From Candidatus Campbellbacteria bacterium GW2011_OD1_34_28 (GTDB lineage: Bacteria; Patescibacteriota; Minisyncoccia; Phycocordibacterales; UBA12079), in assembly GCA_001029775.1 (NCBI GenBank), contig CP011215.1:32148-96147 (forward strand): a DNA stretch of 64,000 nucleotides, in the 5' to 3' direction. Both the position numbers and the translations under genes were made by a program. The notes under the pieces were generated by a model. It was not told the origin of the DNA. It worked only from the letters and a program-made list of their open reading frames with translations, and did not search any database. Positions 4,300 to 5,905 of the stretch are shown here, piece by piece (position 1 is the first letter of the stretch; each line of letters opens with the position of its first letter).

Positions 4300-4746
4300 T
4301 TACAAACTATTTTTATTAATTTTTTCCAAGTCTTTTCTATAAAATTTTGAAACAACAACAAAAGCCATAATAGCTCCTATCATATCCATCAACAAATCCA
4401 ACAATGTGTCGTCTATATAATTGTTAGAAAAATCAACCTCTATTATAAATTCAAAAATCTCCCAACCAAGACCGATTAAAATACCGGAAAATAAAGAAAT
4501 AAAAAACATTTTTCTTTTATTAACAGTACCTTCTTTTGTAAAAATACTTTTACCACCTTTTTTTGAAAAACCAGAAGAGTAATAAAACCACAAAGCTGAA
4601 AGTCCTACCCAAAGACCGCCAAGAAAATGCATCATTATATCAAACCACCAAATCCTCCAATAAAAATAATAGTTCACCGCCAACTCATTTAGTGCGGCAA
4701 TAAACAAAATCAATATAAATGTAAAAATAAAAAGTTCTTTTCTCAT
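4300..4746 (-). CDS. Small polytopic membrane protein (VanZ-like?)
   Basis: The ORF track extends to 4863. The upstream 39 codons overlap a GC-rich structured element, so MRKELFIFTFILILFIAALNE... (ATG at 4744-4746) is taken as the start. Four hydrophobic segments. Confidence 0.45.
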   Translation of the reverse strand: MRKELFIFTFILILFIAALNELAVNYYFYWRIWWFDIMMHFLGGLWVGLSALWFYYSSGFSKKGGKSIFTKEGTVNKRKMFFISLFSGILIGLGWEIFEFIIEVDFSNNYIDDTLLDLLMDMIGAIMAFVVVSKFYRKDLEKINKNSL

Positions 4747-4751
4747 TGTCT

Positions 4752-4930
4752 CTAAATAAGAAAACCCGCTCCTCGATTTGAGAGAGCTGGTTTTCGCCTG
4801 GGCCACCTGAGGCATTATCCCTAGTATATAACTAGAGTGGGTATGCTCTGGGTACTGCACCAAGGTGCAATATCCACACGAGCCCCCTCATAATGCTTTA
4901 GTAGGAAAAATACTCTGCAGGTGACCTTCT
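4752..4930 (-). ncRNA. Candidate structured small RNA, identity unknown (6S- or SRP-like in size), with its own promoter and terminator
   Basis: A 170-nt block much GC-richer than its flanks. The closing helix GGUCACCUG (from plus 4918-4926) / CAGGUGGCC (from plus 4801-4809) is complete only on the minus strand (one U-G wobble; C-A mismatch on plus). Internal helices GCAUUAU/AUAAUGC and UGCAC-CUUG-GUGCA. TTGCAA-17-TAATAT promoter-like hexamers sit just upstream on the minus strand. Downstream is a terminator hairpin gaaaacc...gggttttc followed by a U-run (plus 4757-4796). Confidence 0.35.
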
Positions 4931-4946
4931 AATATTATTACATCTT

Positions 4947-4997
4947 AAAAAAAACTTGCAATAACAATATTGCAAGTTTTTTTATTTTTTTATTACT
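4947..4997. terminator. Bidirectional rho-independent terminator downstream of ndk
   Basis: A8-cttgcaata-acaa-tattgcaag-T8: perfect 9-bp stem with A and T runs on both sides. Confidence 0.65.
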
Positions 4998-5064
4998 CCT
5001 TAAAAAAGCTTTATTATTCAAGGGTTCCGTCTATGTTTACATCGTAAAGAATTTGTTCTTGAAA

Positions 5065-5643
5065 TTAAATTCTTGTTCTATAATGTATTTTTTCTTCAGG
5101 TCTTTCATAAGAATGAATTTCATCTGGACTAAACCAAAAATCAATTTCTTTTTGTGCTTCAGTCGGGTTATCAGTTGCATGAATTATTGTTAGATTTGGT
5201 CTATTTGATTTATTCGCAAGTTCAAATGTGTCATGTGAATAGTCCCCTCTGATTGTTCCAGGAGCCGCTTCGTCAATATTTGTAGGACCTGTTAATCTTT
5301 TTACTGTCATAACAGCGTTATGTCCTTCAAGAACTACAGCGATAATCGGTGAAATTTGCATATCGTGAATCAAACCTTCAACAATATTTTTTCCTACGGG
5401 AATAGGGTCTGCATCTTCTGGCATTCCCAATTTTTTCTTATAAAGCTCTCCCTTTTCTCTAAACCATTTTTCATCTTTTTCGTAATGTTTTTCAAGAACC
5501 TCTCTAGAAGCCTGAATCATTTTAATTGCAGAGATTTTCAAACCAACCCTTTCAAATCTTTGAATAATTTCTCCAACAATACCTCTGGCGATAACATCTG
5601 GTTTTAATAAAACCAAAGTCTTTTCTTTTGTTAAGTGTTTCAT
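5065..5643 (-). CDS. ndk: Nucleoside diphosphate kinase, with an internal insertion and C-terminal extension
   Basis: 192 aa. LVLLKPDVIARGIVGEIIQRFERVGLKI and the catalytic-His region NLTIIHATDN match NDK. An insertion of about 40 aa (EKHYEKDEKWFREKGELYKKKLGMPEDADPIPVGKN) and a tail of about 30 aa are extra. Confidence 0.8.
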   Translation of the reverse strand: MKHLTKEKTLVLLKPDVIARGIVGEIIQRFERVGLKISAIKMIQASREVLEKHYEKDEKWFREKGELYKKKLGMPEDADPIPVGKNIVEGLIHDMQISPIIAVVLEGHNAVMTVKRLTGPTNIDEAAPGTIRGDYSHDTFELANKSNRPNLTIIHATDNPTEAQKEIDFWFSPDEIHSYERPEEKIHYRTRI

Positions 5644-5699: not shown

Positions 5700-5905
5700 G
5701 GTCCATTTTTCAAAAAATTGTGGGTTGCTTCACTTCGTTCGCAAAGACGGATTTTGCGAAGCAAAATCCGTCACCCTCGTCGTCTTCGCGAGGCGAAGCC
5801 GAAGCGATCCACGTCGTTTTTTTTTGGATTCCTGCCTGTCGTGTTGTTGCTTTTCTTTCAGAAAAGAGGCGGGGCAAATTTCCCGCCTAAATCCTAAACC
5901 CTCTT
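5700..5905. repeat. GC-rich hairpin-dense intergenic repeat element, copy 1
   Basis: Perfect hairpin gacggattttgc-gaa-gcaaaatccgtc, the words cgtcttcgcgag and gaagcgatccacgtcg, and the terminal hairpin ggcggggcaaatttcccgcc followed by taaatcctaa. About 55% GC against a genome of about 33%. Confidence 0.6.

What the first reader, a model, noticed from the sequence alone, without database searches (positions are those of the whole stretch)
4752..4930. Unannotated GC-rich structured RNA candidate with promoter and terminator, minus strand
Between ndk and a small membrane-protein gene lies a 170-nt block far GC-richer than its surroundings. On the minus strand only, a 9-bp closing helix forms (GGUCACCUG/CAGGUGGCC with a U-G wobble; the plus-strand equivalent has a C-A mismatch). 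Inner helices are GCAUUAU/AUAAUGC, a CUUG-tetraloop hairpin UGCAC-CUUG-GUGCA, and CUAG-UUAUAUA-CUAG. Minus-strand TTGCAA-17-TAATAT hexamers place the transcription start at the first G of the closing helix. A stem-loop plus U-run (plus 4757-4796) ends it before the next gene. The size fits 6S RNA, SRP RNA or an unknown sRNA. No diagnostic motif could be recognised by eye.
Basis: seen in the sequence. Interest (0 to 1): 0.5.

Follow-up and report, generated by a model that had tools for sequence, protein, structure and literature searches.

The report
Compact 6S-like RNA gene in Parcubacteria
The GC-rich block is a real, unannotated small RNA gene with its own promoter and terminator, most likely a shortened 6S RNA (the RNA that mimics an open promoter and sequesters RNA polymerase), and it belongs to a family that Rfam does not detect across several Parcubacteria lineages.

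Summary
On the minus strand, 4926->4801 is a ~126-nt structured RNA. A promoter lies at 4961-4932 and an intrinsic terminator at 4795-4754. The window comes from a Candidatus Campbellbacteria bacterium (CPR).

A covariance model built from the element finds the same motif, always on the gene's strand, directly upstream of about 70 of 80 diverse DUF2238 genes. Named relatives are Campbell-, Nomura- and Kaiserbacteria. On the 29-sequence alignment, 91% of pair cells are paired, against about 45% in slid controls, and 38 of 42 pairs show double changes.

No Rfam family reaches threshold, and the window copy has no Rfam match at all. Three relatives have 6S RNA (RF00013) as their best weak hit (14.6-20.4 bits), aligned through the family's invariant core AGGGAG...CACCCACCU. 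Most members can adopt two near-isoenergetic folds. One is a rod with a roughly 14/14-nt central bubble. The other has a 3'-bubble hairpin. This matches the known 6S release switch.

A riboswitch reading is weakened because DUF2238 usually has its own -10 box 6-8 nt before the ATG.

Verdict: a compact, divergent 6S RNA (confidence about 0.75), and a new variant of a known kind. RNA polymerase binding is untested.

The parts
4956..4961 (-). -35-like hexamer TTGCAA of the RNA's promoter. It lies inside the ndk terminator stem.
   Evidence: TTGCAA-16-AATAAT. TTGCAA/TTGAAA is kept in L018, L019, L025 and L027.
4932..4939 (-). -10 region: AATAAT at 4939-4934, overlapping TAATAT at 4937-4932, preceded by TG.
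   Evidence: Relatives have TGnTATAAT/TATACT 7-8 nt before the first G of the motif.
4801..4926 (-). Structured core of the RNA (126 nt), which is the covariance-model match. The transcription start is inferred at 4926-4928.
   Evidence: 153 bits, E 6e-37; 119 bits; fold z -5.9.
4918..4926 (-). Closing stem, 5' strand GGUCACCUG.
   Evidence: Helix 1: 93.8% of cells paired, 10 of 11 pairs with changes on both sides.
4801..4809 (-). Closing stem, 3' strand CAGGUGGCC.
   Evidence: helix 1.
4900..4916 (-). 5' strand of the bubble-proximal helix (AG.GUAUU.UUCCUA) plus CU. This is the inferred template for a product RNA 5'-GUAGGAAAAAUAC.
   Evidence: Rod conformer. The pRNA is inferred by analogy with known pRNAs, which carry GG at positions 4/5 (PMC8414754). 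It has not been observed.
4887..4901 (-). 5' strand of the central bubble in the rod conformer (CUAAAGCAUUAUGAG). It contains GCAUUAU (4896-4890).
   Evidence: R structure. GCAUUAU pairs with AUAAUGC at 4818-4812 in the alternative conformer (-7.0 kcal/mol).
4839..4887 (-). Internal (apical) stem, from GGG..GCUC through the CUUG tetraloop (4864-4861) to GAGC..CCC.
   Evidence: helices 3-5. The GGG/CCC base is nearly invariant, and the 4-bp and 10-bp helices vary with double changes at every pair. The apex length varies among relatives.
4819..4837 (-). 3'-bubble hairpin CUCUAG-UUAUAUA-CUAGGG. Its 3' strand can instead pair with 4907-4902 (UUCCUA).
   Evidence: helix 6 (97.6% paired, 6 of 7 pairs with double changes). 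for the alternative pairing.
4812..4818 (-). AUAAUGC. It pairs either with GUAUU (4913-4909, rod form) or with GCAUUAU (4896-4890, collapse-helix-like form).
   Evidence: PMC8876501 describes the analogous element in B. subtilis 6S-1.
4754..4795 (-). Intrinsic terminator: hairpin GAAAACCAGCUCUCUC-AAAU-CGAGGAGCGGGUUUUC followed by UUAUUU.
   Evidence: -19.2 kcal/mol. A terminator 3-8 nt after the motif is found in nearly all relatives.
4300..4746 (-). Downstream gene for a DUF2238 / 'Wok'-family membrane protein (148 aa). It is a conserved neighbour, not part of the RNA.
   Evidence: bioRxiv 10.1101/2025.01.14.632903.

Best explanation
The element is the 6S RNA (SsrS) gene of this Campbellbacteria genome, in a shortened form shared by many Parcubacteria.

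Shown:
- It is transcribed from its own sigma-70-type promoter, starting at about 4926, and ends at an intrinsic terminator at about 4754.
- The ~126-nt core has a closing stem, an AU-rich unpaired 5' strand, and a conserved GGG/CCC-based internal stem capped by a tetraloop.
- It has a conserved hairpin on the 3' side of the bubble.
- It can alternate between two folds. One is a rod with a roughly 15/15-nt central bubble. In the other, the 3' strand of the bubble-proximal helix refolds into the 3'-bubble hairpin and a GCAUUAU/AUAAUGC helix.

Inferred, from what is established for E. coli and B. subtilis 6S RNAs:
- The rod form mimics an open promoter and occupies the active site of the housekeeping RNA polymerase holoenzyme.
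- When NTPs return, the polymerase copies the 5' strand (...GUAUUUUUCCUAC) into a short product RNA, predicted as 5'-GUAGGAAAAAUAC.
- That product RNA displaces the 3' strand, which snaps into the hairpin and collapse helix and releases the enzyme.

The conserved position upstream of DUF2238 is read as synteny, or occasional co-transcription as with ssrS-ygfA, and not as regulation of that gene.
For: 1. Real, conserved RNA.
- Models R1 and R2 find the motif on the gene's strand upstream of about 70 of 80 DUF2238 loci and nowhere else in 0.5 Mb, with a single copy in the 64-kb window.
- 91% of pair cells are paired, against 36-47% in slid controls, and 38 of 42 pairs have double changes.

2. 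Independent gene.
- A TATAAT-type box lies 7-8 nt before the motif, and a strong terminator follows it within 3-8 nt, in nearly all of 69 non-redundant loci.

3. Link to 6S.
- RF00013 is the top Rfam match for L085 (20.0 bits, E 0.022), L072 (20.4 bits, full-length model over the whole motif) and L075 (14.6 bits).
- These alignments run in register through the family's invariant AGGGAG...CACCCACCU and the AU-rich 5' bubble strand.

4. Architecture and switch.
- The rod and hairpin conformers differ by <=3 kcal/mol in 47 of 67 members.
- At least 4 nt of the hairpin's 3' strand pair with the 5' strand in 45 of 67 members (70% of real sequences against 29% after shuffling the 5' segment).
- This mirrors the 3'-central-bubble hairpin and collapse helix described for 6S RNAs (PMC8876501; PMC8414754).

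5. Size precedent.
- Truncated B. subtilis 6S-1, reduced to the bubble plus two short arms, still completes the cycle in vitro (PMC8876501).

6. Synteny precedent.
- 6S genes are known for strong local synteny (PMC8414754).
Against: - No member reaches the RF00013 gathering score of 46.4 bits.
- The window copy gives no Rfam match at all at E<=10, even in a 146-nt search. Its link to 6S is therefore transitive, through relatives.
- The three weak 6S hits come from related sequences and are not independent.
- Model R2 does not detect E. coli ssrS.
- The core is 112-128 nt in most members, against 160-200 nt for known 6S RNAs.
- The association with one gene family (DUF2238) is very tight. In the window only 14 nt separate the U-run from the ATG and there is no good -10 box, which resembles a leader.
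- In the window copy the collapse-type helix is predicted to be stronger than the proximal helix.
- I could not scan a whole CPR genome to show that no other 6S exists there.
- The covariation counts come from an alignment fitted to the model.
Confidence: 0.75

Rival explanations
1. It is a cis-regulatory leader (a riboswitch or attenuator) of the DUF2238/Wok membrane-enzyme gene. The structured domain would sense a ligand or condition and decide whether transcription stops at the terminator or reads into the gene.
For: - The motif lies directly upstream of, and co-oriented with, DUF2238 in about 72 of 76 loci that have enough upstream sequence, while other neighbours change (ndk, methyltransferase, rplT, beta-lactamase-fold gene).
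- A terminator always follows the motif.
- In the window the ATG is 14 nt after the U-run, with no convincing promoter in between.
- The two alternative folds could also serve a switch.
Against: - 33 of 63 loci have a TATAAT/TATACT box 6-8 nt before the DUF2238 ATG, and only 4 have a Shine-Dalgarno. The gene therefore usually has its own promoter, probably giving a leaderless mRNA, downstream of the terminator.
- The terminator folds independently of the core. I saw no conserved antiterminator pairing, but I did not test this rigorously.
- The best database similarity is to 6S RNA, not to any riboswitch.
Confidence: 0.12
2. It is a stand-alone small RNA of a new family whose function is unrelated to RNA polymerase. 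The weak 6S similarity would be convergent or due to chance.
For: - All 6S scores are far below threshold, and the window copy does not match at all.
- The reciprocal search of E. coli ssrS fails.
- The RNA is unusually short.
Against: - The weak hits are in register across closing stem, bubble, internal stem and conserved core.
- The two-state architecture matches the 6S mechanism in detail.
Confidence: 0.1
3. It is not an RNA gene at all. It would be either the 5' coding part of the 4300-4863 ORF (or of the annotated 171-aa protein starting at 4815) or a mobile inverted-repeat element.
For: - Public annotation extends the DUF2238 protein into the element (P0001, 171 aa; P0002, 158 aa).
- The MFE is a long rod.
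Against: - 24 of 26 homologues start at the MRK/MKK position that corresponds to the ATG at 4746, and the extensions are not conserved as protein.
- Substitutions preserve base pairs, not codons.
- There is a single copy in the window by BLAST and by the covariance model.
Confidence: 0.01

Closest known systems
6S RNA / SsrS (Rfam RF00013), especially the Bacillus subtilis 6S-1 and Aquifex type
   Same: - It is an independent gene with a housekeeping-type promoter.
- It has a closing stem, an AU-rich 5' bubble strand, and an internal stem that starts at GGGAG and ends at CACCCACCU.
- It has a 5-7 bp hairpin on the 3' side of the bubble.
- A second helix can form between the distal 5' bubble strand and the 3' strand of the proximal helix, like the 'collapse helix'.
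- Local synteny is strong.
   Different: - The core is about 40% shorter (112-128 nt in most members, against 160-200 nt), because the closing and internal arms are short.
- It scores 14.6-20.4 bits against a threshold of 46.4, and the window copy is not detected.
- It is followed directly by its own terminator hairpin.
- It is linked to DUF2238 and not to ygfA or rarA/uspA.
- RNA polymerase binding and pRNA synthesis are untested.
E. coli 6S RNA release switch (3'-central-bubble hairpin formed from the 3' strand of the downstream helix)
   Same: The 3' strand SUAGR can pair either with the 5' strand YCUAS (rod form) or with the adjacent CCUAG (hairpin). The two states are nearly isoenergetic.
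   Different: - The hairpin is shorter here (about 7 bp against 9 bp).
- It is predicted to be slightly favoured already in the free RNA, as in B. subtilis.
- Model R2 does not find E. coli ssrS.
Terminator-type riboswitch leaders
   Same: It has a structured domain that begins at the transcription start, followed by an intrinsic terminator, upstream of one conserved gene family.
   Different: - The downstream gene usually has its own -10 box after the terminator.
- No antiterminator was recognised.
- There is no similarity to any riboswitch family in Rfam 15.

Membership tests
6S RNA (RF00013) | Covariance-model score at or above the Rfam gathering threshold (46.4 bits) | tested here: not met
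   The window copy has no hit at the gathering threshold or at E<=10. Relatives score 20.0, 20.4 and 14.6 bits, with 6S as the top hit. There were no gathering-level hits in 20 loci.
6S RNA (RF00013) | Rod architecture: closing stem, large central bubble, internal stem with terminal loop | tested here: met
   The rod conformer has a 14/14-nt bubble in L085 and a 15/15-nt bubble in the window. The window MFE is a rod. The stems are supported by covariation.
6S RNA (RF00013) | Conserved sequence bordering the bubble (Rfam consensus ...auaGGGag...gcaCCCACCUgg...) | tested here: met
   The family consensus is AGGGAg...cACCCACcu and aligns in register with the RF00013 consensus. The window copy reads GAGGGGG...AUACCCACUCU, a partial match.
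6S RNA (RF00013) | Structural rearrangement elements (3'-bubble hairpin and/or collapse helix) compatible with pRNA-driven release | tested here: met
   The hairpin is 97.6% paired, with 6 of 7 pairs covarying. Alternative pairings are specific compared with shuffles. Definitions come from PMC8876501. This test is computational only.
6S RNA (RF00013) | Length about 160-200 nt | tested here: not met
   The core is 112-128 nt in most members and up to 201 nt where the apex carries insertions. The window transcript is about 170 nt if the terminator hairpin is retained.
6S RNA (RF00013) | Binds sigma70/sigmaA holoenzyme and templates product RNAs | not testable with these tools
   The predicted template ...GUAUUUUUCCUAC would give 5'-GUAGGAAAAAUAC, with GG at positions 4/5 as in known pRNAs. 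This is inference only.
6S RNA (RF00013) | One housekeeping copy per genome, with no other 6S present | tested here: inconclusive
   There is one copy in the 64-kb window and none in unrelated loci. Whole genomes could not be scanned.
Riboswitch / transcription-attenuation leader | Sits in the 5' UTR of the regulated gene, with no promoter between the terminator and the start codon | tested here: not met
   33 of 63 loci have a TATAAT/TATACT box 6-8 nt before the ATG. The window copy lacks a good one.
Riboswitch / transcription-attenuation leader | Mutually exclusive terminator and antiterminator pairing with the sensor domain | not tested
   The only observation is that the terminator folds as a separate domain in the window MFE. 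No systematic search was made.
Bacterial SRP RNA (4.5S) | Match to RF00169, with the domain IV motifs and a GNRA-type apical loop | tested here: not met
   There is no Rfam match at E<=10. The apical loop is CUUG/UUCG.
tRNA / tmRNA | Cloverleaf or tRNA-like domain detectable by ARAGORN | tested here: not met
   ARAGORN finds no genes in the whole window.

The most novel reading that the evidence does not exclude
The RNA is not a general RNA polymerase regulator. It would be a dedicated partner of the DUF2238/Wok lipid-head-group enzyme in ultrasmall bacteria. It might be a new riboswitch or attenuator class, or a 6S-derived RNA that controls the adjacent leaderless promoter through terminator read-through or transcriptional interference. 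Either way it would tie membrane-lipid remodelling to an RNA sensor.
Probability: 0.12. Interest if true: 0.7.

Novelty: new variant of a known kind. Interest (0 to 1): 0.45.

Why it matters
- 6S RNA is regarded as nearly universal in bacteria. In the library I searched, I found no paper that mentions it together with Parcubacteria, and no listed CPR/Patescibacteria paper mentions it. Rfam 15 does not detect this family.
- A natural 6S of about 120 nt would be the smallest known. It would be the natural counterpart of laboratory-truncated 6S-1 RNAs that still work in vitro.
- It would show that bacteria with genomes under 1 Mb keep global control of RNA polymerase.
- In practice, the model built here can annotate the gene in many CPR genomes. 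It also corrects a recurrent annotation error, in which DUF2238 proteins are extended at the N-terminus across the RNA.

Tried and rejected
- **Archaeal origin.** The first genome scan with Ndk returned only DPANN-labelled MAGs. I briefly considered archaeal RNAs: 5S rRNA, H/ACA and C/D sRNAs, intron-containing tRNA. I dropped this when exact-protein look-ups placed the window in Campbellbacteria, next to bacterial infC-rpmI-rplT.
- **Synteny through ndk.** The element is absent downstream of ndk in L001-L011.
- **tRNA, tmRNA, SRP, RNase P, T-box.** ARAGORN and Rfam find nothing. The GGUGG that resembles a T-box is not conserved in L025.
- **Repeat or MITE.** The element has a single copy in the window.
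- **Coding extension.** Rejected by the protein alignment.
- **Riboswitch.** This was my working hypothesis. The second promoter and the 6S hits weakened it.
- **Large Rfam E-value scan over 42 kb.** It was uninformative because the search space was too large for 20-bit hits.
- **Reciprocal search of E. coli ssrS with R2.** It found nothing.
- **Helix GCAUUAU/AUAAUGC as a family-wide 'P2'.** It is the weakest helix (78% paired). I reinterpreted it as a collapse-helix-like alternative.

Full report
**1. What is in the sequence**

The region 4750-4899 has GC 0.47-0.50. Its flanks are 0.25-0.31 and the window mean is 0.35. Read on the minus strand, 4945->4740 contains these elements in order:
- the ndk terminator (4983-4948);
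- a promoter-like TTGCAA-16-AATAAT (4961-4934);
- a 126-nt structured core (4926->4801);
- a hairpin plus U-run (4795->4754);
- the ATG of a membrane-protein gene at 4746.

The minus strand folds at -75.7 kcal/mol, with z = -5.9. The 187-aa ORF that overlaps the element is not coding. In an alignment of 26 homologues, all but a few start at the residue that corresponds to the ATG at 4746. The annotated N-terminal extensions (P0001, P0002) are translations of the RNA.

**2. Which organism**

An Ndk-based genome scan returned only MAGs labelled Woese-, Pace- or Nanoarchaeota, at 75-85% identity. That misled me for a while. Exact-protein look-ups place the window on a Candidatus Campbellbacteria contig (GCA_000990765.1), beside the bacterial genes infC-rpmI-rplT. 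Bacterial promoter and terminator logic therefore applies.

**3. Conservation**

The element does not follow ndk. It follows the downstream gene, a DUF2238 protein.
- It is present between ndk and DUF2238 in L018 and L019.
- It lies between a methyltransferase gene and DUF2238 in L025.
- It is also upstream of DUF2238 in L026 and L027.

I used the single metagenome scan to fetch 80 diverse DUF2238 loci with 26-48% identity. A covariance model built from four close copies (R1), and a second built from 29 hits (R2), gave the following results:
- They find the motif on the gene's strand, 40-250 nt upstream of the start codon, in about 70 of the 80 loci.
- They find two further weak hits with filters off.
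- They find none in the ndk-only loci.
- They find only one copy in the 64-kb window.

Named relatives belong to Campbell-, Nomura- and Kaiserbacteria and to the 'Parcubacteria group'.

**4. Structure**

On the 29-sequence alignment:
- 91% of pair cells are standard pairs, against 36-47% when partners are slid.
- 38 of 42 pairs show changes on both sides.
- No shuffle out of 500 reaches the observed values.

One caveat applies: the alignment is fitted to the model. The closing stem, the internal stem and the small hairpin are each strongly supported. Invariant nucleotides are AGGGAG at the base of the internal stem and C-ACCCAC-CU after it. The apex is variable and carries insertions of up to about 80 nt in some members.

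**5. Leader or separate gene**

Nearly every locus has a TATAAT-type box 7-8 nt before the motif and a terminator 3-8 nt after it. This arrangement, together with the tight link to DUF2238, first suggested a riboswitch.

However, 33 of 63 loci carry a second TATAAT/TATACT box exactly 6-8 nt before the DUF2238 ATG, and only 4 have a Shine-Dalgarno sequence. The gene therefore normally has its own promoter, probably producing a leaderless mRNA, downstream of the terminator. That makes the RNA a separate transcription unit. The window copy is an exception. Its ATG is 14 nt after the U-run and it has only a weak TATTTA, so read-through may matter there.

**6. Identity**

- No Rfam 15 family reaches threshold in the window or in 20 related loci.
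- The window copy has no match even at E<=10.
- In small E-value searches, the top hit for three relatives is 6S RNA, RF00013: L085 at 20.0 bits (E 0.022), L072 at 20.4 bits with the full-length model laid over the whole motif, and L075 at 14.6 bits.
- The alignments run in register. The AU-rich 5' bubble strand, GGGAG, the internal stem and CACCCACCU of the Rfam consensus coincide with the family's invariant core.

According to the literature, 6S RNAs have these properties (PMC8876501; PMC8414754):
- They are rods of 160-200 nt with a closing stem, a central bubble and an internal stem.
- B. subtilis-type 6S RNAs carry a 5-7 bp hairpin on the 3' side of the bubble.
- After product-RNA synthesis they form a 'collapse helix' between the distal 5' bubble strand and the freed 3' strand of the proximal helix.
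- E. coli-type 6S RNAs form a hairpin from that freed strand.
- Truncated 6S-1 with only the bubble and two short arms still works in vitro.
- 6S genes show strong synteny.

**7. Test of the 6S switch**

For each of 67 non-redundant members I computed two constrained folds.
- With the hairpin enforced, the 5' strand is open.
- With the hairpin's 5' strand blocked, its 3' strand (SUAGR) pairs with the conserved 5' motif YCUAS. This extends the proximal helix and leaves a symmetric bubble: 14/14 nt in L085 and 15/15 nt in the window.
- The two states differ by <=3 kcal/mol in 47 of 67 members.
- At least 4 nt of the hairpin's 3' strand pair with the 5' strand in 45 of 67.
- After shuffling the 5' segment, this fraction falls from 70% to 29%, and the mean energy gap widens from -2.25 to -5.26 kcal/mol. 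The sequences are related, so the p-value is inflated.

A collapse-helix-like pairing of <= -4 kcal/mol exists in 21 of 67 members, and the proximal helix in 41 of 67. In the window copy:
- the rod scores -50.6 kcal/mol;
- the hairpin plus GCAUUAU/AUAAUGC form scores -51.6 kcal/mol;
- the unconstrained MFE is -55.5 kcal/mol.

**8. Mechanism (inferred)**

The rod form would occupy the housekeeping holoenzyme as an open-promoter mimic. Copying ...GUAUUUUUCCUAC would give 5'-GUAGGAAAAAUAC, with GG at positions 4/5 as in known pRNAs. The displaced 3' strand would then form the hairpin and collapse helix and release the enzyme. None of this has been tested experimentally.

**9. Weaknesses**

- All 6S scores are far below the threshold of 46.4 bits, and they come from related sequences.
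- The window copy links to 6S only through its family.
- R2 does not find E. coli ssrS.
- The core is about 40% shorter than known 6S RNAs.
- I could not check whole genomes for a second 6S.
- The linkage to DUF2238 is unusually tight and leaves room for a cis-regulatory role.

My estimates are 0.75 for 6S, 0.12 for a leader or riboswitch, 0.10 for an unrelated new sRNA, and about 0.01 for a non-RNA explanation.

**10. Novelty**

In the library I searched, I found no paper that holds both '6S RNA' and 'Parcubacteria', and none of the listed CPR/Patescibacteria papers mentions 6S RNA. This is a compact, sub-threshold lineage of a known RNA class, so I rate it a new variant of a known kind, of moderate interest.

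Noticed in passing
window 5065-5643 (ndk) and 5014-5064; loci L001-L011, L025, L027: The Ndk of this CPR bacterium is 75-85% identical to Ndk in MAGs labelled Woese-, Pace- or Nanoarchaeota. It differs from the Ndk type of other Parcubacteria (L025, L027), which ends ...EQ(V/M)LYDVN(L/I)DGI(L/F)E*. Directly after the window's ndk stop codon lie 16 codons that read FQEQILYDVNIDGTLE*. These codons are in frame 0 in the window, +1 in L018 and +2 in L019. They look like a relic of a native ndk 3' end left behind after in-place replacement by a DPANN-type gene, or after transfer in the opposite direction.
   Followed up: partly
window 5700-5870; also about 8547, 17935 and 18700: The second GC-rich intergenic island, between ndk and the methyltransferase gene, is a palindromic dispersed repeat. 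Its core TTGCGAACGAAGTGAAGCAA has 4 copies with <=3 mismatches in the window, where 0 are expected. The copies coincide with other GC islands. It has no Rfam match. It may be a REP- or MITE-like element.
   Followed up: partly
window 4747-4815; proteins P0001, P0002: Public gene calls start the DUF2238 protein at the ATG at 4815, inside the RNA (171 aa, 'MPQVTQ...'). Homologues show that the true start is 4746. This is a recurrent annotation error caused by the unannotated RNA.
   Followed up: yes
loci L030-L109, upstream of the DUF2238 start codons: In 33 of 63 loci a TATAAT/TATACT box ends 6-8 nt before the ATG, and only 4 of 63 have a Shine-Dalgarno-like sequence. This suggests leaderless DUF2238 mRNAs in these Parcubacteria. 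In some loci the box reuses the TG at the end of the upstream terminator's U-run, for example L085 TTTTTGTTAGAAT.
   Followed up: partly
window 1-64000: The whole 64-kb window contains no tRNA, tmRNA or Rfam family at gathering score.
   Followed up: no
L014 about 2680-2730; L019 about 1675-1740; window about 5890-5905: Tandem heptamer repeats follow the methyltransferase gene: (AATTTAG)n in L014 and (AATTTGT)n in L019. The window has only one or two units.
   Followed up: no
L098, L061 and L073, between the terminator and the DUF2238 promoter: A short GC-rich insert, ACCCTGAGCGAAGTCGAA(G/C)G(G/A)TT, appears in several loci. It resembles the GCGAAG-rich repeat seen in the window.
   Followed up: no
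L033-L036, L052, L065, L090, L037, L081 (apex of the internal stem): Some family members carry insertions of 20-80 nt at the apex of the internal stem, while the core is unchanged. This would restore a longer internal arm, as in canonical 6S RNAs.
   Followed up: no
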